The position numbers were made by a program, and so were the translations under genes. From a virus (lineage: Duplodnaviria > Caudoviricetes), in IMG/VR virus record IMGVR_UViG_3300032311_000461, positions 1 through 63,641 of that record: a DNA stretch of 63,641 bases, one strand, 5' to 3'. The notes under the pieces were generated by a model, which ran no database searches, was not told the origin of the DNA, and saw nothing but the letters and a program-made list of their open reading frames with translations. Shown in pieces: positions 15,632-48,088 of the stretch. Numbering within the stretch: the first letter of the stretch is position 1; each line of letters begins with the position of its first letter.

Positions 15632-15651
15632 GGCGGGCAATAGTTACGCGA
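15632..15651 (-). promoter_or_regulatory. Conserved motif TCGCGTAACTATTGCCCGCC
   Basis: 20/20 identical to 26357..26376 (+); core also at 23305 and 19619. Confidence 0.55.
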
Positions 15652-23304: not shown

Positions 23305-23320
23305 GGCGGGCAATAGTTAC
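23305..23320 (-). promoter_or_regulatory. Conserved motif GTAACTATTGCCCGCC upstream of scaffold/capsid operon
   Basis: Repeat of the 15632 and 26361 motif. Confidence 0.55.
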
Positions 23321-24678
23321 TTGGAGATTAATCCGCGTAACCAACTGCCAGCACCATAAGCAGCATTGCCAGCCGGTGCGATTGCGTTACCTATTTTGGT
23401 TACAGTTGTCTGTGGGCGAACGATCTGGCTGTTGAGGTTTTCCAGCACCTTGAACGATTGGTCGCGGGTTTTATCCTTCTGTTGCTGTGCAACTTCCCAC
23501 TCGCTGTTGCTGCGGGTGTCGCCACCAAGTAACTCCGCACCTAGCTCAACAGCGTTGGTTACATCCGCCGCCTCGTCCTTGATGTGGTGGGCAATTCTGC
23601 CGCCCGCAGTGGGATTGGCGACAAGGTTTTTGGCGATGTCATCGGCTGTACTCTGGGCAAATTTCGCCACACCGGGGACCCCGGTCCTTGCAGCCGCACC
23701 AGCCACACCCCGAACTGCATTGGGAATGGCCTTGTGGGAACCAACGAAACCAGTGCCGTCAAGCATTCCGTTGCCGAAACTGAGGCCAGCATTGATCACG
23801 GGCTGGATGTATGGGACCTGCCCATTCATTCGCTCTGGGAGAAATCGGTTTCCGACTGCACCCCGGAACGTATCCCCGGCACTCATCCCCTCGGAGCCGT
23901 ACCAAGCGTTCTGGCCTTGCTGGATCAGACCGTCGTTGCCCCTCCAGCCATTGTCATTTGCCAACACGGGATTGGTGCGGAAGAAGTCAGACCCCTGTGA
24001 GCGAACTGCCGCATTGCCCATAGCCGCAGTTGGGTCTGTAGTTCTGAGGATCGCCGTCCCAAGTTGGCTCATGCCGTCCGAAACCGCTCCACCCATCTTG
24101 GTCGTGAAGCTGCCAACGAAGTTCTCGGGGTTCCATAGCTCCTGAACACCACCCTCTGGGATGCCCGGGAACATGGTGCCGGGGCCTGAGCCCGGGATGT
24201 AGGCGTGAGTCCGGCCTACCTGTTGTGCGTAATTCTTGGCGTGACCCTCATTCAGCTTGTTGGGAGAGCCGCCAGCCCATGCCGCCGCGCTTGGGAACCA
24301 ACTGTTGTCGGCTTGCTGCGGGGCAATGGAGTCATAGAGCCGGTTTCGGTTCTCAAGCTGGTCGAGGTACTGACCACCCGGCGAGAACTCATAGGACTCC
24401 GGGGCCCTGCCAAGAGCTTTCGATTGCTCGGGAGTCCAGCCCTTCCCCGAATACCCACTGAGCATCTGATCCTGAAGGGCCCGCTCATCGTCATCTTGCG
24501 GCTGGTAGCTGGGGTGACCCACCTGCCGGTAATACTTGAAGTCATCAAGCTGCGGGTGCTGCTTGCCAGCCGCGTGGGCAGCCGCCATAGCTTTCGCATT
24601 GAAACGAAGCTGTTGCTCCGGGGGCAACCGGGCAATGTCACGGGAGTAGGCGTGATAGAGTGCTTCTTCAGGTGTCAT
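23317..24678 (-). CDS. Hypothetical protein, possible internal virion protein
   Basis: 453 aa Gly/Ala/Gln-rich, coupled ORF. Confidence 0.7.
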   Translation of the reverse strand: MTPEEALYHAYSRDIARLPPEQQLRFNAKAMAAAHAAGKQHPQLDDFKYYRQVGHPSYQPQDDDERALQDQMLSGYSGKGWTPEQSKALGRAPESYEFSPGGQYLDQLENRNRLYDSIAPQQADNSWFPSAAAWAGGSPNKLNEGHAKNYAQQVGRTHAYIPGSGPGTMFPGIPEGGVQELWNPENFVGSFTTKMGGAVSDGMSQLGTAILRTTDPTAAMGNAAVRSQGSDFFRTNPVLANDNGWRGNDGLIQQGQNAWYGSEGMSAGDTFRGAVGNRFLPERMNGQVPYIQPVINAGLSFGNGMLDGTGFVGSHKAIPNAVRGVAGAAARTGVPGVAKFAQSTADDIAKNLVANPTAGGRIAHHIKDEAADVTNAVELGAELLGGDTRSNSEWEVAQQQKDKTRDQSFKVLENLNSQIVRPQTTVTKIGNAIAPAGNAAYGAGSWLRGLISK

Positions 24679-26339: not shown

Positions 26340-26376
26340 GGCGGGCAATCCTTTGATCGCGTAACTATTGCCCGCC
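26340..26376. promoter_or_regulatory. Inverted pair GGCGGGCAAT-N17-ATTGCCCGCC at the divergence point
   Basis: Two opposed copies of the ATTGCCCGCC motif between divergent genes. Confidence 0.5.
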
Positions 26377-26385
26377 GCGTAACTC

Positions 26386-27129
26386 ATGCAGATAATGCGG
26401 TTTCAGGCTGAGTTAGTAGACATTGCCACACGGGGGACACAACCAATGAGGCTGCACGAAATCGGCGCGATATATGACCCGAAACATGAGGAAGCTCTGG
26501 CCAAGCTGAACTGGAACATCCGCAGTGGATATGCCGGGGCAAGCAAGCCCAACCCCGAAACCGGAAAAACGATGTATGCAGGAGCCATGCACCGCATCGT
26601 CTGGGAGCTTGAGTACGGCAGCCCAGCCCCAAAGCTGATCGACCACATAAACCGCAATCGGCTAGACAACCGGGTGTGCAACCTGCGGGCCGGAACACCA
26701 ATCCTGAACGCAGCCAACAACAGCGGGCAGCCAAGCCAACGGAAGTACGGGAACCCGCAGGGCTGTTACTTCGACAAGCGGTCGAGAACATTCAATGCCG
26801 CCATCACGCACAACGGCAAGGCAATCCCTCTCGGCTCCTTTGATACGCCAGAGGAAGCTCACGCCGCATACCTCAAGGCACAAGAATCGGTTCTGAAGCA
26901 CCTGACCACAGGGGAGCCGCTGGCCATCAGGGACACGACAGCAAGGCGGCAAGAAGTGCTGGCGTTACTGCAAGAGCTTGCCGCCAACAGGGCGACCCGA
27001 TCTGAGATTTGCAGAAAGGCTGACATCTCCCGGGTAACGCTTCGCAAGTACGAGAGGCTTCTGGGGCTGGAAATCACGCAGGCAAAGCGTGGAAGACCGT
27101 CAAAACGTGAAAGAAAACTGTCAGCGTAA
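26386..27129 (+). CDS. HNH endonuclease with AP2-like and C-terminal HTH domains
   Basis: MHRIV...IDHINRNRLDNRVCNLR; LGSFDTPEEAHAAY; TRSEICRKADISRVTL. Confidence 0.85.
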   Translation: MQIMRFQAELVDIATRGTQPMRLHEIGAIYDPKHEEALAKLNWNIRSGYAGASKPNPETGKTMYAGAMHRIVWELEYGSPAPKLIDHINRNRLDNRVCNLRAGTPILNAANNSGQPSQRKYGNPQGCYFDKRSRTFNAAITHNGKAIPLGSFDTPEEAHAAYLKAQESVLKHLTTGEPLAIRDTTARRQEVLALLQELAANRATRSEICRKADISRVTLRKYERLLGLEITQAKRGRPSKRERKLSA

Positions 27130-27581
27130 CCCCGTTTGTGTTTTTCGATTTACTCCAGCACCAGAACTAACAGATATACGCCCACACGCGGGGGGGCCCG
27201 GGAGCCCGCCTGCAAGCCCGCACAGGCCCGCGATTCTTCGCCCGCCCGCCCCTAGCCGCGACCGCCCGCCGCCCCGCAGAACCGCAGCCACGCGGCCACA
27301 CGGGCACTCCCGGGCATGGGCATGGCGTGGAAGCCCCGGTTGGCCCTTGGTTCCAAGGGGCAACCTCCCCACTTTTTGGGGGTTTTTCGGCTGACCAGCG
27401 GTGATTTTTTCACCACCCGGTGAACTTTTCCTCACCACCAAGGGGGGGTTTGTTGTCACCTTCGGTGGTCAGGCTGGCAGCTTTCCGCCACGGGCTGCGC
27501 GTTTGCGGTCATGGGCCCGCGCTGTCTTCCCCGGGTGTGTGCGTCCCCTCGCGTGCGCTGTCTTCGTGTGTGTGCGCCCGG

Positions 27582-27611
27582 AATCCCCGGAGGGGATTTT
27601 GGCCCTCTGGT
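27582..27611 (+). repeat. Hairpin-box element 1 (AATCCCC-GGA-GGGGATT-T-TGGCCCTCTGGT)
   Basis: 7-bp stem, 3-nt loop, 1 nt, conserved 12-mer. Confidence 0.9.
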
Positions 27612-27670
27612 TGTTGTCGGCAACGGCCAGTGTGGTCGCTGCGGCACAGCACACAACGGGAGGCACGGTC

Positions 27671-27874
27671 ATGCACACAGTCGAGCAGTACGTCAACGGG
27701 GAGTTCGTGGTGGCGGCACGGTTCACCGACATTCAGGACGCATACGAGTTCGCCAACGACATCGACGGGCTCGTCATCCCTGAAGGGATGACCGACGAGG
27801 GGGCGATTGCCAACCGGCGGCTGGATTTCATGGAGGCCGCTTGCGGGTGGTTCTGTGCGGCTGACGAGCGGTGA
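27671..27874 (+). CDS. Early hypothetical protein
   Basis: MHTVEQYVNGEF, GGGAGG SD. Confidence 0.75.
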   Translation: MHTVEQYVNGEFVVAARFTDIQDAYEFANDIDGLVIPEGMTDEGAIANRRLDFMEAACGWFCAADER

Positions 27875-27892
27875 GCCCTCGCACACACGCGG

Positions 27893-27922
27893 AGTCAGGG
27901 GACCTGACTGTGGCCCTCTGGT
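27893..27922 (+). repeat. Hairpin-box element 2 (AGTCAGG-GGA-CCTGACT)
   Basis: Same geometry, covarying stem. Confidence 0.9.
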
Positions 27923-27927
27923 TGGTG

Positions 27928-27973
27928 GCGGTGGCTGATCGGCAGCCTGACGGGTTCGATGCCCGTTCACCGC
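27928..27973 (+). ncRNA. Anticodon-less tRNA-like element 1
   Basis: GCGGTG/CACCGC closing stem, GCTG-ATCGG-CAGC hairpin, GACGGG-TTCGATG-CCCGTT T-arm. Confidence 0.7.
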
Positions 27974-28009
27974 ACTGGGTTCGGTTGTCCATTCACGGGA
28001 GGAACGATC

Positions 28010-28414
28010 ATGCAAGGGGTCATGCGGCAGGCAGTGACGGGGCGGAAGATTGAGCAGCGCATGGAGCGGGCCATGCGATGGGGCTTTGAAGACTGGCGGC
28101 AGACGAACACTGCGGTCACTTCGTTCTACGAAGGGCCCCTGTGGGTGCAGGAAATTCGCCTGCACGGCAACCTGATTGCCCGGGTCGAAAGGGGCTGCAT
28201 CGGGACCCGAAAGTTCGGCCACCGTCAAGTGAAACTTGACCACTGCGGCTGGAAGACGGCGACCACGAAAAGCCGCATGAACGCAGTGCTGAAAGCACTC
28301 GACCTGCCCATCAGCGTGTACCAGAGCAAGGGCGAGTGGTTCCTCTGGAACCAGACGGCGACCGTTCCGGCTGGTCGCTTTGACGATTTCAACGTGATCA
28401 CGCTCAACCCGTAA
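28010..28414 (+). CDS. Conserved phage early protein
   Basis: IRLHGNLIA...GWKTATTKSRMNA motif seen in many phage proteins; GGGAGG SD. Confidence 0.8.
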   Translation: MQGVMRQAVTGRKIEQRMERAMRWGFEDWRQTNTAVTSFYEGPLWVQEIRLHGNLIARVERGCIGTRKFGHRQVKLDHCGWKTATTKSRMNAVLKALDLPISVYQSKGEWFLWNQTATVPAGRFDDFNVITLNP

Positions 28415-28426
28415 TCACACACGCCT

Positions 28427-28456
28427 ACTCAACGGAGTTGAGTGTGGCCCTCTGGT
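28427..28456 (+). repeat. Hairpin-box element 3 (ACTCAAC-GGA-GTTGAGT)
   Basis: Same geometry. Confidence 0.9.
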
Positions 28457-28460
28457 TGGC

Positions 28461-28506
28461 AGCGACGGTGATCGGCACCGTCCGGGGTTCGACTCCCCGG
28501 GTCGCT
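28461..28506 (+). ncRNA. Anticodon-less tRNA-like element 2
   Basis: AGCGAC/GTCGCT, GGTG-ATCGG-CACC, CCGGGG-TTCGACT-CCCCGG. Confidence 0.75.
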
Positions 28507-28547
28507 CTGTTTCGTGTTCGGTTGTCTCACACACAAGGGGTTTTCAC

Positions 28548-28808
28548 ATGACGGCTACGCAAATTCGGGCGGCACTTCAGGCGGAACGCGACGAGCTTTG
28601 CACCACCTTTGGCTTCGCCAACCGATGGACGGCGATGATTTTCCAGTGGTGCCGCGATGCGGGGTTTGGGGATGACGGCAGTGACCGGGAACTGGGCGAC
28701 ATTGCCTATGACCTGCGGGCCTTCGTGGAGGGGGCGAAAAACGTGCCCGCCTACCGGCTCGACAACGTGGACTTCGTGCAGATCGCACTCTGCTTGCAGA
28801 TCGACTAA
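28548..28808 (+). CDS. Early hypothetical protein
   Basis: 86 aa after the CACACACAAGGGG leader. Confidence 0.75.
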   Translation: MTATQIRAALQAERDELCTTFGFANRWTAMIFQWCRDAGFGDDGSDRELGDIAYDLRAFVEGAKNVPAYRLDNVDFVQIALCLQID

Positions 28809-28860
28809 GGCCGAAACCGGGGAAACCCGGTCGCACCGTAACGCGGTGCCTGACGAGGCC
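28809..28860 (+). ncRNA. Hammerhead ribozyme (type II) 1
   Basis: GGCC-GAAA-CCGGG(GAAA)CCCGG-TC^-GCACCG(TAACG)CGGTGC-CTGACGA-GGCC; full catalytic core, cleavage after C28832. Confidence 0.92.
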
Positions 28861-28897
28861 ATTCGTCCCCCTGATTGGTCGATGGGGTCACTCGACT

Positions 28898-28938
28898 GCC
28901 TCCCGGTGGACGTTCCATCGGGGGGCTTTTCTTTTCTT
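28898..28938 (+). terminator. Intrinsic terminator
   Basis: GCCTCCCGGTGGA/TCCATCGGGGGGC stem plus TTTTCTTTTCTT. Confidence 0.75.
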
Positions 28939-28957
28939 CACGCGAAGGATCACACCC

Positions 28958-29227
28958 ATGTTGGTGCCTGACTATGACCGGATGATCGACGTTTTCCCGG
29001 GCGAAACCTATGAGGTTCTCATGCCCTATTCCGAAGTGTGTATGCACATGGGAATCGCGGGGACCGTTCGACGGATTCTGGTCCGCGAAGCGGGGCAGGG
29101 CGTTTACCTGCTGAACGATGACCTGACAACGGGCCCGCACATGACGAGCGGCGAGGCCGGGATTCTGGGTTGCTCACACAGCCATCCCTACACCTACGGG
29201 TTCAAGTACGAGCCCTCCCGTGCGTAA
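28958..29227 (+). CDS. Early hypothetical protein
   Basis: 89 aa, AAGGA SD. Confidence 0.7.
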   Translation: MLVPDYDRMIDVFPGETYEVLMPYSEVCMHMGIAGTVRRILVREAGQGVYLLNDDLTTGPHMTSGEAGILGCSHSHPYTYGFKYEPSRA

Positions 29228-29256
29228 TTCCCCGGAGGGGAATGTGACCCTCTGGT
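29227..29256 (+). repeat. Hairpin-box element 4 (ATTCCCC-GGA-GGGGAAT)
   Basis: Same geometry, box TGACCCTCTGGT. Confidence 0.9.
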
Positions 29257-29260
29257 TGGC

Positions 29261-29310
29261 AGCGGTTGGCTGACGGAAGCCTCTCCCCGGTTCGACTCCG
29301 GGGAACCGCT
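29261..29310 (+). ncRNA. Anticodon-less tRNA-like element 3
   Basis: AGCGGTT/AACCGCT, GGCT-GACGGA-AGCC, CCCCGG-TTCGACT-CCGGGG (T-stem inverted relative to element 2). Confidence 0.75.
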
Positions 29311-29346
29311 CTGTTTCGGGTTCGATCACACACAAGGGGCACCATC

Positions 29347-29676
29347 ATGGCATGGTCGATTTCGATTACAGCCGAAGGCTGGGCTGACATCCGCAAGGAA
29401 CTGGAAACGTGGGACCGGCAGCGGATTATCGACGCACTGGCTGACGATGCGTTTGAAGCTGCGGAGCAGGCCAACGGCGACGATGGCAAGGGCTACGAGG
29501 AAACCGTGTCGCCCGACGATGCGGCGGATGCCTGCCGTGCCAGTCTGGAATCGGCGGCGGATGACACGCTGGTTGACGCTGCGATGGACTGCATTGAGCG
29601 CAACAACACTTGCGACAACGGCGGCTTCCGGTACTGGATCGACCGGGAGGGGTATCACGGGGTAACGCTCGACTGA
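29347..29676 (+). CDS. Acidic early hypothetical protein
   Basis: MAWSISITAEGW, 109 aa. Confidence 0.75.
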   Translation: MAWSISITAEGWADIRKELETWDRQRIIDALADDAFEAAEQANGDDGKGYEETVSPDDAADACRASLESAADDTLVDAAMDCIERNNTCDNGGFRYWIDREGYHGVTLD

Positions 29677-29678
29677 CA

Positions 29679-29730
29679 AGCCGAAACCGGGGCAACCCGG
29701 TCTGCCAGTAACGCTGGCACTGACGAGGCT
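29679..29730 (+). ncRNA. Hammerhead ribozyme (type II) 2
   Basis: AGCC-GAAA-CCGGG(GCAA)CCCGG-TC^-TGCCAG(TAACG)CTGGCA-CTGACGA-GGCT; stems covary with copy 1. Confidence 0.92.
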
Positions 29731-29755
29731 ACACACTCACAACGGGAGCCATTCA

Positions 29756-30097
29756 ATGGCCGAAAAACTGACGATTGGTGGCGTGGAAATCACGGTGGTG
29801 GCAGGCGACTGCGACCGGGAAGGCCGGACGGTTTTCACCTACACCCTGAAGGGTGCCGGGATCGACCACGAAGCCAGCGACCTGAAATCCGGCTGCGGTA
29901 GCAGGGGCCGGAAGGACCGTGACGGGATGGAATCCCTCCTGTCCTTCCTTGGTGCGGCGGCGGAAGCCTACGGATACCACCTTCGGATGGGCGGCGGGAG
30001 TGACAACGGCGACCTTTTCCCCCCGGAGGTCATGGAATGGGCCTATCAACACGACAACGAAATCAGCATGGCTGCCGACGAGTACGCATATGCGTAA
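29756..30097 (+). CDS. Early hypothetical protein
   Basis: 113 aa, GGGAG SD. Confidence 0.75.
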   Translation: MAEKLTIGGVEITVVAGDCDREGRTVFTYTLKGAGIDHEASDLKSGCGSRGRKDRDGMESLLSFLGAAAEAYGYHLRMGGGSDNGDLFPPEVMEWAYQHDNEISMAADEYAYA

Positions 30098-30125
30098 CCA
30101 ACGGAGTTGGTTCTGGCCCTCTGGT
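30096..30125 (+). repeat. Hairpin-box element 5 (AACCAAC-GGA-GTTGGTT)
   Basis: Same geometry. Confidence 0.9.
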
Positions 30126-30129
30126 ATTC

Positions 30130-30178
30130 GACGGTTGTGGTTCGGCCACCGTCCGGGGTTCGATGCCCCGGAACCGTC
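30130..30178 (+). ncRNA. Anticodon-less tRNA-like element 4
   Basis: GACGGTT/AACCGTC, GTGG-TTCGG-CCAC, CCGGGG-TTCGATG-CCCCGG. Confidence 0.75.
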
Positions 30179-30211
30179 CTGTGTTCGATTGCCCACACTT
30201 GGAGAGCGACC

Positions 30212-30526
30212 ATGACGAAACAGGAAGAGATTGACCTTCTCAAGACCTTTGTGGGCAACCTGCCCGAAGGGTATCTCAAGGATGCACTGGCACCGTTTGT
30301 GCCTGACTTTGAGTGTGGCATTCGTAGCGACATCGTGCCCTCAGTGTGGGATTCCTACCACGCTCGGGTCAAAGCTGACGAAGACCGGGATCGGTCAGAG
30401 CGGCTGGCCCGGATTGCAAAGTCTCAGGCCGACAAGGAAGAGCAACGTCTGCTTGCCGCACAGCGGGCGGTGGACGGCTATGCGGCTTCAATCAAGCAAA
30501 CGCTGCGGAGCTTGACCGGGAACTGA
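30212..30526 (+). CDS. Early hypothetical coiled-coil protein
   Basis: MTKQEEIDLL, GGAG SD. Confidence 0.75.
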   Translation: MTKQEEIDLLKTFVGNLPEGYLKDALAPFVPDFECGIRSDIVPSVWDSYHARVKADEDRDRSERLARIAKSQADKEEQRLLAAQRAVDGYAASIKQTLRSLTGN

Positions 30527-30602
30527 CGGTATCCAACCACCCTCTCCCTTCGGGGAGGGGGAAATTGGGGATCGTTGGTTACACACACAAGAGGGTTCGA
30601 CC

Positions 30603-30995
30603 ATGAAATTCGACCGGAAATTCGACAAGTTTGTCGGCGTTGGGGACACGATCAAGGCAGACATCACCGACAAGATGCAACTCGTTGCCACTCTCGTCTA
30701 TGACGATCAGTGCCAGCCCACAGACTTCGACTGCTACGAGGAAGCCGACATTGAGCGGTGGAAGAATGACGAGTGGATTTTCGTGGGGATCGTGTTGTCC
30801 ATTCAATCGCACGACGGCACGATCCACACACGCCTTGATTCCCTTTGGGGAAACGAGGCCAACCTCGGTGACAACAACGATCACCTGACCGACGTTGCCA
30901 ACGAGTTGATTGACGAGCGGGACATCGTTGACGCACTGCGGAAGATTTACGAACCCGTAACCCGGGCGATTGAGACTCTCACACGCACAGCCTAA
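30603..30995 (+). CDS. Acidic early hypothetical protein
   Basis: 130 aa, WKNDEWIFVGI...SLWG motif. Confidence 0.8.
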   Translation: MKFDRKFDKFVGVGDTIKADITDKMQLVATLVYDDQCQPTDFDCYEEADIERWKNDEWIFVGIVLSIQSHDGTIHTRLDSLWGNEANLGDNNDHLTDVANELIDERDIVDALRKIYEPVTRAIETLTRTA

Positions 30996-31019
30996 CAGAG
31001 TTAGGCATGACCCTCTGGT
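30990..31019 (+). repeat. Hairpin-box element 6 (GCCTAAC-AGA-GTTAGGC)
   Basis: Same geometry, AGA loop, overlaps the upstream stop codon. Confidence 0.9.
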
Positions 31020-31038
31020 TGGTATCGGTTGGATGACG

Positions 31039-31070
31039 GCCCCGGCAATTTCGCCGGGGCTTTTCTTTTT
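31039..31070 (+). terminator. Intrinsic terminator
   Basis: GCCCCGGC/GCCGGGGC plus TTTTCTTTTT. Confidence 0.8.
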
Positions 31071-31092
31071 CACACACAAGGGGACCGCAACG

Positions 31093-31467
31093 ATGGCAAA
31101 CGACAACTACACCGAGAACATGGCCGACATTTTCCAGTGCCCCCGGGAAAGGCGGATGGTGCTGGAAATCCTGAAGGCATGGGAGTCCGGCGGGCTGCCG
31201 AAGGACTTCGATGACAGGGGCGTGAAGCTGGCGTTCAACCGCAGTAGCGGCAACGTCTTCCTCGTCAACGAGGAATATCAGGTGGCAATGGTGGAGGGGC
31301 TCTGTCTGGAGTCCTTCTACTCCAGCCCATACGAGGGCAAGGAGGGGTTCTTCACCGACCTCCTGAGCGAGTACCCGTCGATGCACCGCGAGGATCAGGA
31401 GTGGTTCCGCGACATCGCAGAGGCGACCGGCAAGCAGGACTTGCTGCCCGCCTTGGACGACGAGTGA
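31093..31467 (+). CDS. Early hypothetical protein
   Basis: FNRSSGNVFLVNEEYQVAM...SPYEGKEGF, 124 aa. Confidence 0.8.
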   Translation: MANDNYTENMADIFQCPRERRMVLEILKAWESGGLPKDFDDRGVKLAFNRSSGNVFLVNEEYQVAMVEGLCLESFYSSPYEGKEGFFTDLLSEYPSMHREDQEWFRDIAEATGKQDLLPALDDE

Positions 31468-31469
31468 CA

Positions 31470-31566
31470 GGGCGAAACCGGGGCGGGCTGGGTAGGGGCA
31501 TTGCGTCCCCACTAAATCCGGCAAGCCTGCCCCGGTCTGTGGGTACTTTCCCACACTGACGAGCCC
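31470..31566 (+). ncRNA. Hammerhead ribozyme (type II) 3 with extended stem III
   Basis: GGGC-GAAA-CCGGGGCGGGCT...AGCCTGCCCCGG-TC^-TGTGGG(TACTTT)CCCACA-CTGACGA-GCCC; cleavage after C31537. Confidence 0.88.
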
Positions 31567-31581
31567 ATTACGAGGTGCAGC

Positions 31582-32043
31582 ATGAAGCGGTATCAGGTGC
31601 GGTTCCACCTTGCCAAAGGTGAAAACCACGGGAAGTGGCAGGTCAAGAGCATGGCCGGGGTGCGGTACTACGATCCCGCTGCCGTGAGCCTGACCCTGTT
31701 GGATTGCCAACTGCGGAACCAACCCGCGACGGCAAAGAAGGTCTATGACGGTGCGAACAAGTCGGTGTGTGCGTGGATCGACTGCAACGAGGTGCTGACG
31801 GCAGCACCGCACACCCCGGCGGGACTGCCGGTGTCCTACGATCCCCGGGTTGCACCGCATTGGCGGAACCTGACGGGCGGGAACATCGACGGCATGAGCC
31901 TGTCTGTCCTGCGGACGGTGAGCAAGAGCGTGTTCTTTACGGGAGAGCGGACGATCACAGTCGGCGGTCTGGTGCAGCTTGCACCACCGGCTGATGAGCG
32001 GGAGGAAGAACTGCGGATGACCCGCATGAGGAGGGAGCGATGA
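31582..32043 (+). CDS. Early hypothetical protein
   Basis: VRFHLAKGENHGKWQVK...KSVCAWIDC, GAGG SD. Confidence 0.8.
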   Translation: MKRYQVRFHLAKGENHGKWQVKSMAGVRYYDPAAVSLTLLDCQLRNQPATAKKVYDGANKSVCAWIDCNEVLTAAPHTPAGLPVSYDPRVAPHWRNLTGGNIDGMSLSVLRTVSKSVFFTGERTITVGGLVQLAPPADEREEELRMTRMRRER

Positions 32044-32261
32044 GCCACACAACGACGATGATGGACCTGACCCGGGGTGAGCTTTCCATCCTTGCTACCG
32101 CTCTTGAGAGAGAGTGGCAGCGGACTGGCAAGCTGTGGACCGATGGTAACCGGGACGGTTGGTATGACGAGAAGGCGAAGGAGCGGGTGGCCGTCCACCT
32201 GCATGAGACTGAGCGGCTTTTCAACAAGGTAAACACACGCATCAAGGAGCTTGACGCATGA
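32040..32261 (+). CDS. Early hypothetical protein
   Basis: 73 aa, ATGA coupling. Confidence 0.7.
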   Translation: MSHTTTMMDLTRGELSILATALEREWQRTGKLWTDGNRDGWYDEKAKERVAVHLHETERLFNKVNTRIKELDA

Positions 32262-32279
32262 ACTGGTAACGCACACACG

Positions 32280-32309
32280 GCTCAACAGAGTTGAGCATGA
32301 CCCTCTGGT
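32280..32309 (+). repeat. Hairpin-box element 7 (GCTCAAC-AGA-GTTGAGC)
   Basis: Same geometry. Confidence 0.9.
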
Positions 32310-32318
32310 TGGTATCTG

Positions 32319-32351
32319 ACCCCCGGCAATTTCGCTGGGGGTTTTTCTTTT
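32319..32351 (+). terminator. Intrinsic terminator
   Basis: ACCCCCGGC/GCTGGGGGT plus T-run; same AATTTC loop as 31039. Confidence 0.8.
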
Positions 32352-32367
32352 AACAAGGGGATGAGCG

Positions 32368-32781
32368 ATGGCAACGTCAGACATTATTGCGGCAATGGCA
32401 GCGGGCACCACGGCGACGGCAACCAAGCGGGTTGGACGGGGCAAGGCGGCGGTGGAGGTGACCATCACCCGGACTGCCCCGGAGGTGGTGGTGGTGGACG
32501 AGACAGTGAAGGAGGAGCCGGTCAGCTACAGCAACAAGCTGCCGGTGGACGAGGGCAAGCGGGCGGTGGATGTGCTGCCGGGGCTGCGACTGTGGGCCTA
32601 CTCCCGGGGCTATCGAGTCTTGGAGCAGACCGGAAAGACCTACACCGGCAGCAAGGCAAAGCTGCGGCGGGTTCTGTACCGGGATGACCTGATCCACCTC
32701 GCCAACATCCTGTTGGAAGAAGCGGAGAACACGCTGACCTATGACGAGGCTCACGGCAATGCGGATGCCGTGCCCTTCTAG
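32368..32781 (+). CDS. Early hypothetical protein
   Basis: 137 aa, ends DAVPF. Confidence 0.7.
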   Translation: MATSDIIAAMAAGTTATATKRVGRGKAAVEVTITRTAPEVVVVDETVKEEPVSYSNKLPVDEGKRAVDVLPGLRLWAYSRGYRVLEQTGKTYTGSKAKLRRVLYRDDLIHLANILLEEAENTLTYDEAHGNADAVPF

Positions 32782-32863
32782 TCCTGCGGCCCACTGCCAA
32801 CTCCCGTGACTGAGACACGGGAGCCAGTTGTGGATCGGGGTTCGATGACACAGGAGACACACG

Positions 32864-33466
32864 ATGACACAGGCAACGAGCATTCTGGGCGACACGATCA
32901 TGGCACAGGCGAAGGCTTTCAAGGAGGCCCGGTCGCAGTTCGATGAGCAGTTCATGGACTGGTCCCGGGGCATCCCGCCTCTGGCACCGGAACACTTCTG
33001 GCCGATGGTCGATGAGTTCCGCGAGGTGCTGATCTACACCATGCAGCACAGGAAGGAAGGCTATGTGGAGGCAGCGGCAGACGAGTTCATGCGGCGGACT
33101 GTGGTAAACAGCGGCGACCTTGCTGCGGCTGTTCACTTCGCCCTGTCGTGGACCCACTACAAGGGCAAGGCGTATGCGGCTGGCGACAAGATGGGATTCT
33201 CGTTCGACCGGGGTGATGACAGCTACGGTGACTTGATGGATGCCGTGCCGCTGCTGGGCCAGAGCTTCAACGAAAGGATGGAGCTTGGCAAGTTCGACAC
33301 GCTGCGTGAGTTCAACGAGCAGGTCGATGCCACCTGCAATGTGGCAGGCCGGTGCCTGAGGAATGAGGTGCTGTTCGGGGAGAACTACTTCTCCATGTGC
33401 CTGCAAGATGCGGCACAGAAGTGGTTGGTGATTGAGTCTCGCAACTACGGAAAGGGAGGTGAGTGA
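32864..33466 (+). CDS. Hypothetical protein
   Basis: 200 aa, CAGGAG SD, GDDSYGDL motif. Confidence 0.8.
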   Translation: MTQATSILGDTIMAQAKAFKEARSQFDEQFMDWSRGIPPLAPEHFWPMVDEFREVLIYTMQHRKEGYVEAAADEFMRRTVVNSGDLAAAVHFALSWTHYKGKAYAAGDKMGFSFDRGDDSYGDLMDAVPLLGQSFNERMELGKFDTLREFNEQVDATCNVAGRCLRNEVLFGENYFSMCLQDAAQKWLVIESRNYGKGGE

Positions 33467-33789
33467 TGAACCGGCAAGAGATGTTGCGAAAGCAGGGAAC
33501 GACGCGGCTGTGGCGGGAGCGGGTTCCCTTTATGAAAGAGGAGCGTTGCTCCAAGGTCCGGGTGCTGGGCATCGCACCCTTCACCATCGACAGGGTGGAA
33601 GGGACTTACCTTGTGGAGTTCAACGCTCACACGGGGAAGTCGCTGACCTACGGTGAGATGTACCGGGTGCCGGTGGTTGCGTTCGACCTGCGTTACCCGG
33701 ATGGCAAGGTGGTGCGTTACCAATCCCTGCGGCAAGCACGGGCGGCGGCTGCCCTGATGGCAGCGGAACGAAGAAAGGTGGTGAAGTGA
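33463..33789 (+). CDS. Hypothetical protein
   Basis: Coupled ORF, GGAGG SD. Confidence 0.7.
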   Translation: MMNRQEMLRKQGTTRLWRERVPFMKEERCSKVRVLGIAPFTIDRVEGTYLVEFNAHTGKSLTYGEMYRVPVVAFDLRYPDGKVVRYQSLRQARAAAALMAAERRKVVK

Positions 33790-33974
33790 TGAAGCGGACG
33801 CTTGAGTTGGCGCAGGTCGGGGCACTGAATGGTGTCGGTGTCGGATACCGGGTGGTCAAGCTGACCAATACGGTGGAGCCCTGCATCGGGGAGTATCTCA
33901 GCACCAGTGAGGTGAAGGATTTCATTCGCCGTCCGGGTTGGACGGTGGTCATCAAGAAAGGGAACGGTGAGTGA
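33786..33974 (+). CDS. Hypothetical protein
   Basis: Coupled 62-aa ORF. Confidence 0.65.
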   Translation: MMKRTLELAQVGALNGVGVGYRVVKLTNTVEPCIGEYLSTSEVKDFIRRPGWTVVIKKGNGE

Positions 33975-34252
33975 TGGCAACGATTCGACTGCAATCCCTG
34001 AAGGGGGAGAAGCGAGAAGGGTTCACGCCGATGGGTGTTCACACCCCCGGCCTGATCGGCTGGGCAGTAGCTGGGTTCACGGGCAATGGGAATGATCCCA
34101 TTGTGCGGATCATCGCGGAGTCCTTCAGCCTCAAGCGGGAGGTGGCACTGGCCATCCTGACCGGCGAGGTGGACTACCGGGTGGACGGGGACGATGTGGT
34201 GTTCGACTGGCCGGGGGATGACCCCATTGTCAAGGAGGTGAGCGGTGGATGA
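33971..34252 (+). CDS. Hypothetical protein
   Basis: Coupled 93-aa ORF. Confidence 0.7.
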   Translation: MMATIRLQSLKGEKREGFTPMGVHTPGLIGWAVAGFTGNGNDPIVRIIAESFSLKREVALAILTGEVDYRVDGDDVVFDWPGDDPIVKEVSGG

Positions 34253-34427
34253 GGACATCAAGGTGAATCTGGAGGGGCTAAAGTTCATGGCCCGTCTGGT
34301 GGATGCGGTGGTGCAACTGAGGCAGTACATCCACACCCATACCCCGGGAGGATGGGAAGGGTATGACTATGCCGATAAGGTCGATCAACTTTTAAGCGAA
34401 GCAGATGCCTTCGGGGAGGACGAGTGA
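34245..34427 (+). CDS. Hypothetical protein
   Basis: AAGGAGG SD, 60 aa. Confidence 0.65.
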   Translation: MDEDIKVNLEGLKFMARLVDAVVQLRQYIHTHTPGGWEGYDYADKVDQLLSEADAFGEDE

Positions 34428-34597
34428 TGGACTGTTCGATTTGTGGGAAGCCGATCCCCGCTGTTGGGGACTGGACTGAGGGTAACAGTGCGGAGCCCGT
34501 GAATGACGGGCGGTGCTGCGACCAATGCGACATGGCTGTGGTGATCCCGGCCCGCATTCAAGAGATGAAGCAACGCAGAAAGGTAGGTGGCAAGTGA
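34427..34597 (+). CDS. 56-aa zinc-finger protein (not in ORF track)
   Basis: MDCSICGKPI...GNSAEPVNDGRCCDQCDMAVVIPARI; GGAGG SD, TGATG coupling. Confidence 0.75.
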   Translation: MDCSICGKPIPAVGDWTEGNSAEPVNDGRCCDQCDMAVVIPARIQEMKQRRKVGGK

Positions 34598-34908
34598 GGA
34601 CAACGATGACTCTGGTGCTGGCCCTTGTGGCTGGCGTGGCACAAGCACAGTACCCCTACGTCCAGCCGGGATGGGGGTACTGGAACAAGGCGGAAGCCAT
34701 GCGACAGCAAGCGTGGCAGAACCAACAGTGGCAGCGGGATCAGTGGCAGCGTGAGCGTGACTACCTTTGGGGCGGCGACTCCATTGACTACGGGCAGCGG
34801 GCAGCCAACCTTCGCAAGACAAAGGAGGAAGCGAGGGGCCTGCGATTGCAGAACGACAGGATGGAAAGCCAAGGCAACCCATACCTGAACAATCCGTTTG
34901 AACGATAG
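34594..34908 (+). CDS. Secreted Gln/Trp-rich protein
   Basis: Signal peptide MTLVLALVAGVAQA|QYPY. Confidence 0.65.
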   Translation: MRTTMTLVLALVAGVAQAQYPYVQPGWGYWNKAEAMRQQAWQNQQWQRDQWQRERDYLWGGDSIDYGQRAANLRKTKEEARGLRLQNDRMESQGNPYLNNPFER

Positions 34909-34909
34909 C

Positions 34910-34939
34910 TTGACAGTATACGCATGTATACTTTAGGAT
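34910..34939 (+). promoter_or_regulatory. Sigma70-like promoter with palindromic operator in the spacer
   Basis: TTGACA-N18-TAGGAT; AGTATAC-GCAT-GTATACT perfect inverted repeat at 34915..34932. Confidence 0.7.
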
Positions 34940-34949
34940 AGCGGGCACA

Positions 34950-34979
34950 AGGTAACGGAGTTACCTCTGGCCCTCTGGT
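34950..34979 (+). repeat. Hairpin-box element 8 (AGGTAAC-GGA-GTTACCT)
   Basis: Same geometry, a few nt after the predicted +1. Confidence 0.9.
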
Positions 34980-35002
34980 TAGTAGCAGCAACAACGGACT
35001 TG

Positions 35003-35039
35003 ACCCGGCAGCCACTTTGGCTGACCGGGTTTTCTTTTT
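35003..35039 (+). terminator. Intrinsic terminator
   Basis: ACCCGG-CAGCC/GGCTG-A-CCGGGT plus TTTCTTTTT. Confidence 0.8.
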
Positions 35040-35057: not shown

Positions 35058-35939
35058 ATGAACGTCCAGACTTCCGGTATCGCTGATCGTATGCGGGCCA
35101 CCTTCCCCACCGTCATCAAGGCTCCCTTGCATGGGCCGGATGGGCTGACAACCGACTGGCATGGGCTGTGGCGGATGGACAACCACCAAGCGGTGGGCCC
35201 CGGCTCAGTCAGTGCAAGGTATGCACCTCACACCAGCGAGGACGTAATCGCTCTGGTCGAGGCGGCGGAACACACCTTCGGTGAGGTGGGGGACGTTGAG
35301 ATGGGCTTCAACCACGGGCACTTCATCAGCGTGGCACCCAAGCTGTCGAAGGAGAAGCGGCTGGAACTGTACGAGAACGACATCGTATTCCCCCGGCTGA
35401 TGATCAATGCCCCCTATGGGTCCAGCTTTCGGGCCAACGTGGGCCTGTTCCGTATCGTGTGCAGCAATTTGTACACGATGCGGGAAGTGTCGGGGATCAG
35501 CGTCACCTTCCGCCATACCCACAGCCTGCGGTCGAAGATGGACGAACTCATCTCCGACTTCCGGTTGCTGGAGCATGGGTGGGACCGGCTGTCGGAGCGG
35601 GTGACCGCGATGACGCAGGCCAAGACTCAGGTGGCCGACTTCCTCGACTCCATATACGGGGTGCCAGCGGACGAGGCCAGTGAGCGGAGCGTGACCATGC
35701 ACAAGAACCGCACCCGGGCAATCATCACCCGGATGGCACAGGAACGCATCCGGGTTCACGGCAATGCCGGTGACCTGATGCAGGCCACCCACTGGGAAAT
35801 GTTCAACGCCATTCAAGGCTTTGTCCAGCACGACAAGTCCCGCAAGGGGAACGTGTCGGCGGTGGATCGCATCATCCTTGCCAACGAGGACGAGACTGTG
35901 CGGCGGGCTGAGAAGTTGCTGTTGGAGTTGGCGGTCTGA
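35058..35939 (+). CDS. DUF932/DUF945-like protein
   Basis: VSARYAPH...INAPYGSS...FRIVCSN...RHT...WEMFNAIQGFVQH. Confidence 0.75.
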   Translation: MNVQTSGIADRMRATFPTVIKAPLHGPDGLTTDWHGLWRMDNHQAVGPGSVSARYAPHTSEDVIALVEAAEHTFGEVGDVEMGFNHGHFISVAPKLSKEKRLELYENDIVFPRLMINAPYGSSFRANVGLFRIVCSNLYTMREVSGISVTFRHTHSLRSKMDELISDFRLLEHGWDRLSERVTAMTQAKTQVADFLDSIYGVPADEASERSVTMHKNRTRAIITRMAQERIRVHGNAGDLMQATHWEMFNAIQGFVQHDKSRKGNVSAVDRIILANEDETVRRAEKLLLELAV

Positions 35940-36947: not shown

Positions 36948-37184
36948 ATGACCAGCACCACGGTAGCCTTGACTGAGCGGCAGGAGGAAATCCTGCGGTT
37001 CATTGCCATGCACATCGACATCAATGGGTTCCAGCCCAGCTTCAGAGAGATGATGGATCGGTTCAAGATCAGGAGCCCCAACGGAATCACTGCCCACCTC
37101 AGGGCACTGGAGAAGAAGGGGGTCATCGCGTCCAACTACCAAACCTCACGGGCAATCAGCTTTGCATGGAAGGAGTGGCTTTGA
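36948..37184 (+). CDS. LexA-type winged-HTH DNA-binding domain only (no peptidase domain)
   Basis: LTERQEEILRFI...GFQPSFREM...SPNGITAHLRALEKKGVI...SRAI. Confidence 0.88.
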   Translation: MTSTTVALTERQEEILRFIAMHIDINGFQPSFREMMDRFKIRSPNGITAHLRALEKKGVIASNYQTSRAISFAWKEWL

Positions 37185-38020
37185 TGAAGGCATACATCTA
37201 CACCCGTGTCTCAACCACGGATCAGAACCTGAGCCCAGAGTGGCAAGGCAACGTGTGCAAGAGCTACTACGAGGCCAGCCTGAAACACAGGGGCTACGAG
37301 TTTGGTGGTATGCTCCACGATCACGGTGAGTCGGCATACAAGATCGACTGGCGTGACCGCACTGCGGGCCGGGAGTTGTTCAACGCTGCCAAGCCCGGTG
37401 ACATCATCATCGTGGCGAAGATGTGCCGTGCCTTCCGGTCTACCCGGGACAGGGAAAACTGCCTCCATTTCCTAGGGCAGGTGGGCATCGACATTGCCAT
37501 CCTCGACTGTGCGATGGACACCACCACGGCAGCCGGGAAGTTCGCGGCTGGGATCATTGCGCTTCAGGTTCAGTGGGAGTCAGACGTTAAGAGTGAGCGG
37601 GCACGGGCTGCCCACTCTGTGCGTAAGGCCCGCCATAACCCAATGAAGAAACGCCCACCGGCTGGGTGGAAGTGGGACCGGGCGATTGATGAACTGGTCC
37701 CAGACTGGGACGAGCGGCGATTGCTGGCCATGATCTATGACCTGAGGGATCGCGGCATCCAGCACATAGCTGGCTCTGCCCGCACCCTCAAGGACAACGG
37801 GGTCAAGCGTGACTGCGGCTACGGCTACAACAAGGCGTGGCTGTGCCGTGCATACGGAGCCTTCCTGAGGAACTTCCCCCGGGAAGGGTTCGTCAAGTCA
37901 CGCGGCAACACCAAGGTGGCAGTCAAGGCTGGGCGTATCAAGGCATCCCTGCCCCGGGCTGAACGCGAAAGGATACTGCGGTCTTCCGAAGTCTCTCCAG
38001 CTTTGCGGCCATCAACTTAG
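37184..38020 (+). CDS. Serine recombinase (resolvase/invertase family)
   Basis: YIYTRVSTTDQ catalytic Ser, DHGESA, RAFRS, DTTTAAGK, WESDVKSER. Confidence 0.9.
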   Translation: MKAYIYTRVSTTDQNLSPEWQGNVCKSYYEASLKHRGYEFGGMLHDHGESAYKIDWRDRTAGRELFNAAKPGDIIIVAKMCRAFRSTRDRENCLHFLGQVGIDIAILDCAMDTTTAAGKFAAGIIALQVQWESDVKSERARAAHSVRKARHNPMKKRPPAGWKWDRAIDELVPDWDERRLLAMIYDLRDRGIQHIAGSARTLKDNGVKRDCGYGYNKAWLCRAYGAFLRNFPREGFVKSRGNTKVAVKAGRIKASLPRAERERILRSSEVSPALRPST

Positions 38021-47937: not shown

Positions 47938-48088
47938 GAGGGTCAACAATCCTTTGTTTTCTGCGGGAAAAGCGAGGGGCAACGCACCCCCCCAAAATGC
48001 GTCCTTAACTAGAGGGGGCGGTGGCAAACCCCCCACTGCGTGGCACGGTTGGCCAAGCAACTTGAATGACACTCAACTGAGGGGAGCC

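What the first reader, a model, noticed from the sequence alone, without database searches (positions are those of the whole stretch)
27582..35039. Early region punctuated by a modular RNA toolkit (hairpin-box, tRNA mimic, hammerhead, terminator)
Seen: most spacers between the small early genes are assembled from the same parts in a fixed grammar. Hairpin-box plus tRNA mimic occurs at 27893, 28427, 29227 and 30096. Hairpin-box plus intrinsic terminator occurs at 30990, 32280 and 34950. A hammerhead directly follows a stop codon at 28809, 29679 and 31470; the first is followed by a degenerate box (GTCCCCCTGATTGG) and a terminator. Many spacers end in a CA-rich leader. Established: hammerheads self-cleave, and tRNA-like folds are cut by RNase P/Z. 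Inference: the phage cuts one early transcript into single-gene mRNAs by two interchangeable routes and gates read-through with terminators. This is the best candidate for an undescribed system here.
Basis: partly seen in the sequence, partly recalled or inferred. Interest (0 to 1): 0.93.

Follow-up and report, generated by a model that had tools for sequence, protein, structure and literature searches.

The report
Ribozyme and tRNA-like phage operon punctuation
In a metagenomic phage, a block of small genes is separated by self-cutting hammerhead RNAs, stripped-down tRNA look-alikes, terminators and a previously undescribed hairpin-plus-box signal, which together probably cut and gate one long transcript into single-gene messages.

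Summary
The window is a complete 63.6-kb phage genome. Its + strand block of small ORFan genes (27.6-35.0 kb) holds 8 copies of a 33-nt hairpin-box (HB), 4 tRNA-like folds (TL) without an anticodon arm, 3 type II hammerheads (HH) and 4 intrinsic terminators.

- All three folds covary. HB: 7 of 7 pairs. HH: 9 of 13. TL: 7 of 11.
- My covariance models separate true copies (HB 40-58 bits, TL 56-70 bits) from background of 20 bits or less.
- The same grammar recurs, with swapped gene cassettes, in related viral and metagenome contigs.

New findings:
- The HB-terminator modules are degenerate HB-TL modules.
- One box position is C in 8 of 8 copies here and G in 7 of 7 in a sister genome, which points to a diffusible partner.

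Clustered hammerheads between prophage genes are already published (PMC3088659). My four literature searches found no description of TL punctuation in a phage or of the HB. No RNA-end data could be obtained, and the HB function remains open. Verdict: a new variant of a known kind, of moderately high interest.

The parts
27582..27614 (+). HB0: hairpin-box at the head of the operon, followed by neither TL nor terminator; start codon at 27671
   Evidence: (52.5 bits)
27893..27925 (+). HB1 hairpin-box
27928..27973 (+). TL1: tRNA-like fold (acceptor 7 bp, D-like hairpin, T arm 5 bp)
   Evidence: 66.3 bits
28427..28459 (+). HB2 hairpin-box
   Evidence: 57.8 bits
28461..28506 (+). TL2: tRNA-like fold
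   Evidence: (mascRNA-menRNA 32.8 bits, below the gathering score)
28809..28860 (+). HH1: type II hammerhead; predicted cleavage after C28832
28861..28939 (+). Small hairpin plus intrinsic terminator. The HB that precedes this unit in relatives L171 and L166 is missing here (40-nt deletion).
29227..29259 (+). HB3 hairpin-box (the stop codon overlaps the first base of the hairpin)
29262..29309 (+). TL3: tRNA-like fold
   Evidence: 70.5 bits
29679..29730 (+). HH2: type II hammerhead; predicted cleavage after C29702
   Evidence: (RF02276 31.1 bits against a gathering score of 37)
30096..30128 (+). HB4 hairpin-box
30130..30178 (+). TL4: tRNA-like fold
   Evidence: (mascRNA-menRNA 22.7 bits)
30990..31022 (+). 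HB5 hairpin-box (the stop codon lies inside the 5' arm of the hairpin)
31036..31072 (+). Intrinsic terminator homologous to the T arm of a TL module
31470..31566 (+). HH3: type II hammerhead with a large insert in stem III; predicted cleavage after C31537
32280..32312 (+). HB6 hairpin-box
32318..32352 (+). Intrinsic terminator
34910..34939 (+). Sigma-70-like promoter TTGACA-18-TAGGAT with GTATAC-N4-GTATAC between the hexamers; it places HB7 within a few nt of a predicted transcript start
   Evidence: -10 region conserved as TAGACT in L164
34950..34982 (+). HB7 hairpin-box
35002..35039 (+). Bulged GC-rich hairpin plus U tract (terminator) before gene 35058-35939

Best explanation
Proposed mechanism:
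- The + strand block 27.6-35.0 kb of this temperate-type phage is most likely transcribed by the host RNA polymerase into long RNAs.
- These are cut into gene-sized mRNAs in two ways: self-cleavage at three type II hammerheads, each wedged between a stop codon and the next leader, and cleavage by host RNase P (and probably RNase Z) at four tRNA 'top-half plus elbow' mimics.
- Intrinsic terminators, which are themselves degenerate TL modules, attenuate read-through at other junctions.
- Every TL, and 3 of the 4 terminators in the window, is preceded by the hairpin-box. This is a composite RNA signal: a 7-bp hairpin with an RGA triloop, a fixed spacer, then single-stranded CCUCUGG.
- I take the hairpin-box to be the docking site of a diffusible, probably phage-encoded factor that decides what happens at the element behind it. 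My best guess is a nut-like read-through signal.

Shown: the folds, their covariation, the grammar, its conservation, and the TL-to-terminator homology.

Inferred: every cleavage, the transcription unit, the timing ('early') and the HB function.
For: Hammerheads (HH):
- The core is invariant. All 129 cells over the 13 counted pairs form a standard pair, and 9 of 13 pairs show compensatory change. The alignment has 10 sequences, 2 of them from the unrelated contig L023.
- Each sits in a stop-HH-leader-SD-ATG layout.
- Published precedent for hammerheads flanking prophage genes, with in vitro cleavage shown (PMC3088659).

tRNA-like folds (TL):
- 98.8% of 86 cells are paired and 7 of 11 pairs are compensatory. 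GGTTCGA and the D-loop GG are invariant over 8 sequences.
- CM R2 finds 4, 3 and 3 copies in the genomes G000, G001 and G002, plus 5 in metagenome relatives. All 15 lie directly behind an HB, although R2's first columns are the tail of the box, so adjacency is partly built into the model. Background in 0.89 Mb of other sequence is 20 bits or less.

Terminators:
- The post-box part of the HB5-terminator module aligns with the HB3-TL module at score 56.5. Shuffles give 7.4 +/- 6.2, maximum 28 of 300.

Hairpin-box (HB):
- 22 distinct rows, 99.4% of 154 cells paired, 7 of 7 pairs compensatory, and no indel between hairpin and box.
- Found only in gene-sense orientation: 8 copies in G000, 7 in G001, 7 in G002 and 2 in G003.
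- HB7 lies between a sigma-70-like promoter and a terminator, a leader-attenuator layout.
- The first box base is C in 8 of 8 copies in G000 and G in 7 of 7 in G001, including orthologous copies.
Against: - No RNA ends could be examined.
- Rfam scores stay below the gathering score: 29-32 bits against 37 for Hammerhead_II. Two of the 3 window hammerheads are not reported at all.
- I saw no conserved loop I / 3'-flank pseudoknot by eye, which PMC3088659 says many type II hammerheads have. Cleavage speed is therefore unknown.
- The TLs have no encoded CCA and the host is unknown.

Against the nut-like reading of HB:
- RNase P would cut between the HB and the polymerase.
- The window has lost the HB before the 28898 terminator without losing the terminator or the downstream gene.
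- HB0 and the HB of the homing-endonuclease cassette are followed by no terminator.
- No N-, Q- or NusG-like protein was found among 20 ORFs.
- Genome G002 mixes C-type and G-type boxes, 3 and 4 of 7. This weakens strict co-evolution unless that contig is a recombinant or a chimeric assembly.
Confidence: 0.5

Rival explanations
1. The box is a DNA site, not an RNA signal. It would be an asymmetric, transcription-oriented binding site for a phage DNA-binding protein that blocks or silences transcription of each cassette in the lysogen, like the 'stoperators' of mycobacteriophage L5 (recalled, not looked up here). The hairpin would be a separate RNA feature.
For: - Multi-copy, asymmetric, intergenic and always in gene orientation.
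- Genome-wide concerted change of one box base between sister genomes.
- The phage looks temperate: repressor-like protein, two recombinases and an attP-like tRNA piece.
Against: - The hairpin covaries in all 7 pairs and keeps an invariant distance to the box in 22 of 22 rows. A double-stranded DNA site has no use for that.
- Copies occur only in the small-gene block and before one homing-endonuclease cassette.
- The promoter at 34910 already carries a separate palindromic operator-like sequence.
Confidence: 0.12
2. The modules make functional small RNAs rather than mere punctuation. HB-terminator units would be 3'UTR-derived or primary sRNAs with a conserved seed (CCUCUGGUU). Excised TLs would be stable tRNA-elbow mimics, for example decoys for host tRNA-directed enzymes or defences.
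For: - HB7 with its terminator, directly behind a promoter, would give a transcript of about 90 nt.
- The layout of hairpin, single-stranded conserved stretch and terminator resembles bacterial sRNAs (recalled).
- The TLs resemble mascRNA, an excised tRNA-like RNA (sub-threshold Rfam hits).
Against: - No complementary site in the phage switches with the box between G000 and G001, and no host is known against which to look for targets.
- The four TLs differ in acceptor and D-like sequence, which fits a structural cutting signal better than one specific decoy.
- The box masks the downstream SD in only 2 of 8 predicted folds.
Confidence: 0.15
3. The hairpin-box is a promoter, either a hairpin promoter of the N4 kind or a phage-specific one. 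Each cassette would then be its own transcription unit, and the TLs and 'terminators' would be 5' structures.
For: - A conserved 15-nt sequence precedes each cassette.
- The mobile HNH cassette in relatives carries its own HB at its very 5' edge.
- As I recall, N4 early promoters are short DNA hairpins with 3-nt loops.
Against: - No giant virion RNA polymerase: the largest ORF is 1267 aa with no RNA-polymerase family hit.
- A strong intrinsic terminator lies 11-25 nt behind 3 of the 8 boxes. That is the wrong order for a promoter.
- The purine loop is on the coding strand.
- HB7 lies downstream of a good sigma-70-like promoter.
- No -10/-35 match in the box by eye.
Confidence: 0.08
4. The repeats are mainly recombination scars or hot spots that shuffle gene cassettes, as with the promoter-stem-loop cassettes of T4-type phages (recalled). 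They would have little role in RNA processing.
For: - Cassette gain, loss and replacement between the window, L151/L163 and L162 breaks at the modules.
- One deletion joins module 1 to module 2.
- Several modules begin with a shared GCGTAA that supplies the stop codon.
Against: Recombination explains the spread but not the covariation that keeps three different folds and an intact hammerhead core in every copy.
Confidence: 0.1

Closest known systems
Clustered hammerhead ribozymes flanking genes in prophages (Perreault et al. 2011, PMC3088659; passages read)
   Same: Type II hammerheads between same-strand phage genes, read as cutting long transcripts into single-gene mRNAs. In vitro cleavage was shown for three such arrangements.
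   Different: Here the hammerheads alternate with tRNA-like folds, TL-derived terminators and a hairpin-box at equivalent junctions. That paper's figures and supplements were not seen.
tRNA punctuation of mitochondrial transcripts, plant mitochondrial t-elements and MALAT1 mascRNA (recalled; Rfam RF01684 hits are sub-threshold)
   Same: A tRNA or tRNA-like fold inside a long transcript serves as the cutting signal for RNase P/Z. The fold is reduced to acceptor, T arm and elbow.
   Different: This is a bacteriophage operon. The folds have no anticodon arm at all, always follow a hairpin-box and have evolved into terminators in sister modules. It is not a member of RF01684, which is a vertebrate family, and the score is below the gathering score.
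RNase III processing sites in the T7 early transcript (recalled)
   Same: One early polycistronic RNA is cut at structured intergenic sites into single-gene mRNAs whose ends carry protective hairpins.
   Different: The cutters here would be a ribozyme and RNase P, not RNase III. One spacer (30527-30602) does fold into a 20-bp interrupted hairpin that could be such a site.
Lambda nut sites and rrn boxB-boxA antitermination signals (recalled)
   Same: A small hairpin plus a short linear box in nascent RNA, placed before terminators. The order hairpin-then-box is that of rrn leaders.
   Different: Triloop rather than pentaloop. The box does not match the boxA consensus as I recall it. There are 8 copies per operon. 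No N-like protein was found. Function is untested.
Bacterial YrlA (Y RNA-like) tRNA-mimic domain (PMC4201824; search listing and abstract start only)
   Same: A non-tRNA bacterial or phage RNA with a T arm, D-like arm and acceptor-like stem.
   Different: YrlA is a stand-alone non-coding RNA bound by a Ro60 ortholog (abstract start; the gene name Rsr is recalled). Here the mimic is an intergenic part of an mRNA operon. Rfam gave no such hit at E <= 10.

Membership tests
Hammerhead ribozyme, type II (RF02276) | Catalytic core: CUGANGA, GAAA, A15.1-U16.1 pair and a cleavage-site H17 | tested here: met
   Invariant in all 10 aligned sequences: CTGA(C/T)GA, GAAA and the A-T pair before C.
Hammerhead ribozyme, type II (RF02276) | Three stems around the core; stems I and III closed by loops, stem II open (this defines type II) | tested here: met
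   Stems I, II and outer III: all 129 cells paired, 9 of 13 pairs with compensatory change. The ends lie in the 4-bp stem II.
Hammerhead ribozyme, type II (RF02276) | Rfam gathering score (37 bits) | tested here: not met
   31.1 bits for 29679-29737. The hammerheads at 28809 and 31470 are not reported even at E <= 10. Relatives score 29-32.3 bits.
Hammerhead ribozyme, type II (RF02276) | Self-cleavage; tertiary contact between loop I and the stem II side | not testable with these tools
   No conserved loop I / 3'-flank pairing seen by eye. An in vitro assay is needed.
Canonical tRNA | Cloverleaf with an anticodon arm | tested here: not met
   ARAGORN finds 0 genes. Between the D-like hairpin and the T arm there are only 1-4 nt.
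tRNA-like RNase P/Z substrate (mascRNA / t-element kind) | Acceptor stem stacked on a T stem (about 12 bp) with a 7-nt T loop TTCRANN | tested here: met
   Acceptor (6 pairs) and T stem (5 pairs): 98.8% paired and 7 of 11 pairs compensatory; GGTTCGA invariant in 8 of 8. Stack lengths of 6+6 or 7+5 were counted by eye on the sequences.
tRNA-like RNase P/Z substrate (mascRNA / t-element kind) | Elbow: GG in the D-like loop to meet the T loop | tested here: met
   Two invariant G columns in the D-like loop of all 8 sequences.
tRNA-like RNase P/Z substrate (mascRNA / t-element kind) | Actual cleavage by RNase P at the 5' end and RNase Z at the 3' end | not testable with these tools
   No reads available; host unknown.
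Intrinsic terminator | GC-rich hairpin directly followed by a U tract | tested here: met
   Consensus scan lists 28898, 31038 and 32318. Folds have z scores of -2.5 to -3.7. The 35002 hairpin has a bulge and was seen only in the fold.
Lambda-type nut / rrn boxB-boxA antitermination site | boxA consensus bound by NusB/NusE, a boxB loop bound by an N-type protein, and read-through of downstream terminators | not tested
   Only the layout is alike. The consensus is recalled, not compared by a tool. No N-like family among 20 ORFs. The host rrn leader could not be fetched because the host is unknown.
N4-type hairpin promoter | A phage-encoded giant virion RNA polymerase that reads DNA hairpins | tested here: not met
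   The largest ORF is 1267 aa, with no Pfam or PHROG hit.

The most novel reading that the evidence does not exclude
A bacteriophage has evolved mitochondria-like tRNA punctuation and uses it interchangeably with ribozymes. A dedicated new RNA signal, the hairpin-box, recruits a phage-encoded factor that couples polymerase read-through to RNA cutting at the element behind it. The tRNA mimics are also the evolutionary source of the operon's terminators.
Probability: 0.3. Interest if true: 0.8.

Novelty: new variant of a known kind. Interest (0 to 1): 0.66.

Why it matters
- It would be a natural counterpart of the engineered tRNA- and ribozyme-flanked polycistrons used to release several RNAs from one transcript, found in one phage operon with both devices side by side.
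- It gives a compact test bed for how a phage sets the stoichiometry and stability of many small early proteins.
- It shows a tRNA-like fold turning into a terminator.
- It offers a new 33-nt cis signal whose partner can be fished out. If that partner is an antiterminator or a nuclease, it would be a new phage regulator.
- The parts are short and portable, so they may be useful as tools.

Tried and rejected
- **Loop-box pseudoknot (CNGAG with CUCUG).** 96.4% compatible, but there is no informative variation: shuffles equal the observed value in 500 of 500. A 3-nt loop cannot pair while the stem stands.
- **Box as an anti-SD mask of the next gene.** Box-SD pairing is predicted for only 2 of 8 modules (HB0, HB6). 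SD accessibility is no lower than with shuffled boxes in 7 of 8.
- **Box as coding sequence.** The NTG 6 nt after GGAG looks like SD plus start. However, only 11 of the 22 rows carry ATG, GTG or TTG there. The frames end or join the next gene without pattern. The box shows no synonymous variation.
- **Sigma-54, ECF or sigma-70 promoter in the box.** Compared by eye only; the key positions vary.
- **N4-like promoter.** No giant polymerase.
- **CRISPR repeat, or an integron attC-like site.** The stems differ in every copy, and only about half end in AAC/GTT.
- **Trans RNA partner.** A 13-nt complement of the box lies in the mRNA of the HNH gene at 47702-47714, but that stretch is not conserved in G001. 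No complementary site switches G/C between G000 and G001.
- **A 'CTGATTG' motif** upstream of the homologue of gene 35058 in the more distant phages L125, L126 and L130 looked box-like, but it is the U-rich tail of ordinary terminator hairpins.
- **L142** scored 40.6 bits with R1 but lies inside a 1280-aa ORF with 6 of 7 pairs, so it is a chance match. It remains a row of A1 and R1.
- **The 14-mer box scan of viral contigs** gave single chance matches, apart from L021, which later proved a relative.
- **No cultured relative** was found in the phage collection by DNA or portal protein.
- **Host.** The terminase search of genome contigs found nothing, and the HB pattern gave 3 chance hits. The attP-like tRNA piece matched at best 93% over 44-45 nt in 301 genomes of one phylum and 84% in another. 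The idea that the box copies the host's rrn boxA could therefore not be tested.
- **The 220-nt conserved block before HB0** folds no better than shuffles, z 0.63.
- **Papers.** PMC3088659 and PMC7230728 were read as passages only; all others as search listings. Supplements are closed, so Figure 3 and Figures S1-S3 of PMC3088659 may show arrangements closer to this one than I could see.

Full report
**Context.** The window is a whole virus record of 63,641 bp with direct terminal repeats, rated 100% complete.
- Genes run on the - strand at 1-26 kb and 40-63 kb. These include a P22-like portal, a terminase, a head protein, a helicase and nucleases.
- Genes run on the + strand from about 27.4 to 40 kb.
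- The + block begins with about 20 small ORFs that match no informative Pfam or PHROG family. It ends with a repressor-like HTH protein and a serine recombinase.
- 'Early' is therefore an inference from layout.
- No cultured relative exists in the phage collection. No prophage or host was found.

**Hairpin-box (HB).**
- Eight copies lie at 27582, 27893, 28427, 29227, 30096, 30990, 32280 and 34950. Each has a perfect 7-bp stem of different sequence, a GGA (6) or AGA (2) loop, four variable bases and CCCTCTGGT.
- Three further exact 9-mer matches elsewhere have no hairpin.
- Over 22 distinct rows from the window and relatives, 99.4% of 154 cells pair, all 7 pairs show compensatory change, and there is no indel between hairpin and box.
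- One of the 22 rows, L142, later proved to be a chance match inside a large ORF.
- Only one G-U pair occurs, but the hammerhead stems have none either. That says nothing for a DNA-level role.
- A covariance model gives 40-58 bits for true copies and 10 bits or less for everything else in four related genomes. The counts are 8, 7, 7 and 2 copies, all in gene-sense orientation.
- Further copies occur in six metagenome contigs.

**tRNA-like folds (TL).**
- Four HBs are followed, 5-6 nt after the invariant CCCTCTGG, by an acceptor stem of 6-7 bp, a 3-4-bp hairpin whose loop holds an invariant GG, a 1-4-nt link, and a T arm with loop TTCGAnn that abuts the acceptor 3' strand.
- Acceptor plus T stem add up to about 12 bp (counted by eye).
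- Over 8 sequences, 98.8% of cells pair and 7 of 11 pairs are compensatory.
- There is no anticodon arm and no encoded CCA. ARAGORN finds nothing.
- Rfam gives only sub-threshold mascRNA-menRNA hits for two of the four.
- My TL model finds 4, 3 and 3 copies in three genomes and 5 in metagenome relatives, at 56-70 bits, all directly behind an HB. Background in 0.89 Mb is 20 bits or less. The first columns of that model are the tail of the box, so adjacency is partly built in.

**Hammerheads (HH).**
- Three elements start 0-3 nt after a stop codon and end 20-30 nt before the next start codon.
- The core is invariant. All 129 cells over the 13 counted pairs form a standard pair, and 9 of 13 pairs are compensatory. 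The alignment has 10 sequences, two of them from an unrelated contig with the same layout.
- The ends lie in stem II, so these are type II.
- Rfam scores stay below the gathering score, 29-32 bits against 37.
- Perreault et al. 2011 describe multiple hammerheads flanking single genes in prophages. They propose processing into gene-length mRNAs and show cleavage in vitro (PMC3088659). This part is a known kind.

**Terminators and their origin.**
- Strong terminators follow HB5, HB6 and HB7, and one follows HH1.
- Beyond the box, the HB5-terminator module aligns with the HB3-TL module. The T arm corresponds to the terminator hairpin, while the D-like 3' half and the acceptor 3' strand are missing. 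The score is 56.5 against 7.4 +/- 6.2 for shuffles, maximum 28.
- The two kinds of module are therefore homologous and interconvertible.

**Grammar in relatives.**
- Three genomes of 76-97% nucleotide identity keep the same order of modules while genes are gained, lost or replaced at module borders.
- The junction before the 28958 gene occurs as HH-hairpin-terminator in the window, HH-HB-hairpin-terminator in L171 and stop-HB-hairpin-terminator in L166. The window has lost a 40-nt HB there.
- In several relatives an HNH homing-endonuclease cassette inserted right after the terminase gene starts with its own HB.

**What the HB may be.**
- It always closely follows a stop codon, a hammerhead or a predicted transcript start. 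It precedes a TL, a terminator or a plain leader.
- HB7 sits between a sigma-70-like promoter and a terminator, which is a leader-attenuator layout.
- The first box base is C in all 8 copies of this genome and G in all 7 copies of genome G001, orthologous copies included. G002 is mixed.
- Such a concerted change suggests a diffusible partner. No complementary RNA site switches with it, so the partner is more likely a protein.
- I rank a nut-like read-through signal first. The evidence against is real, though: RNase P would cut behind it, it can be lost, and two copies precede no terminator.
- The promoter, anti-SD, pseudoknot and coding readings were tested and set aside.

**Limits.**
- No RNA data were available. 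The host is unknown.
- Four literature searches found no description of tRNA-like punctuation in a phage or of this box. The library is partial and supplements were closed.

**Verdict.** The processing model is plausible and partly precedented. The TL punctuation, the TL-derived terminators and the HB are new as far as I could search. The mechanism of the HB is unresolved.

Noticed in passing
window 47848-47919 (-) and 47936-48910 (+): A tRNA-Gly(CCC)-like sequence (Rfam tRNA 22.1 bits, below the gathering score of 29; good 3' half, degenerate D arm) lies next to a tyrosine-recombinase-like ORF. It is probably the attP. The best match to sampled bacterial genomes was 93% over 44-45 nt, so the host was not identified.
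   Followed up: partly
window 15632-15650 (-), 23305-23323 (-), 26358-26376 (+): A 19-nt repeat, CGCGTAACTATTGCCCGCC, occurs as two exact copies and one with 2 mismatches (0 expected by chance). It sits at gene ends. Two of the sites border HNH endonuclease genes or their insertion point in relatives.
   Followed up: partly
window 26386-27129 (+), 47185-48072 (-); L021 593-1309 (-): Free-standing HNH endonuclease genes are present or absent between close relatives. The one in L021 and its kin is inserted exactly after the terminase stop codon and carries its own hairpin-box.
   Followed up: partly
window 27176-27395 (+): A GC-rich non-coding block is conserved better than the neighbouring genes in four relatives and ends in a terminator-like hairpin. 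It folds no better than shuffles (z 0.63). Two exact copies of GCGCTGTCTTC follow at 27519 and 27555.
   Followed up: partly
window 30527-30602 (+): This spacer folds into a 20-bp hairpin interrupted by two internal loops (-33 kcal/mol, z -2.3). Relative L163 has a hammerhead at the same junction. It may be an RNase III-type site, a third cutting route.
   Followed up: no
window 32782-32863 (+): Relatives L162 and L163 have a hammerhead directly after the stop codon of the 137-aa gene. The window has a different structured spacer of about 80 nt that lacks the hammerhead core.
   Followed up: no
window 34910-34939 (+); 36948-37184 (+); 37181-38020 (+): A sigma-70-like promoter carries GTATAC-N4-GTATAC between its hexamers. 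It lies near a repressor-like HTH protein and a serine recombinase, so this is a likely lysogeny-control region.
   Followed up: no
all HB copies, the two bases around the start of the box: The dinucleotide is GC or AC in all 8 copies of this genome, AG in all 7 copies of G001, and mixed in G002 and L171. This is an unexplained concerted change.
   Followed up: partly
L023 (unrelated viral contig), 1291-1383 and 2560-2650 (-): Two type II hammerheads in the same stop-HH-SD-ATG layout turned up by chance in a contig fetched for a random 14-mer match. The layout is not peculiar to this phage.
   Followed up: no
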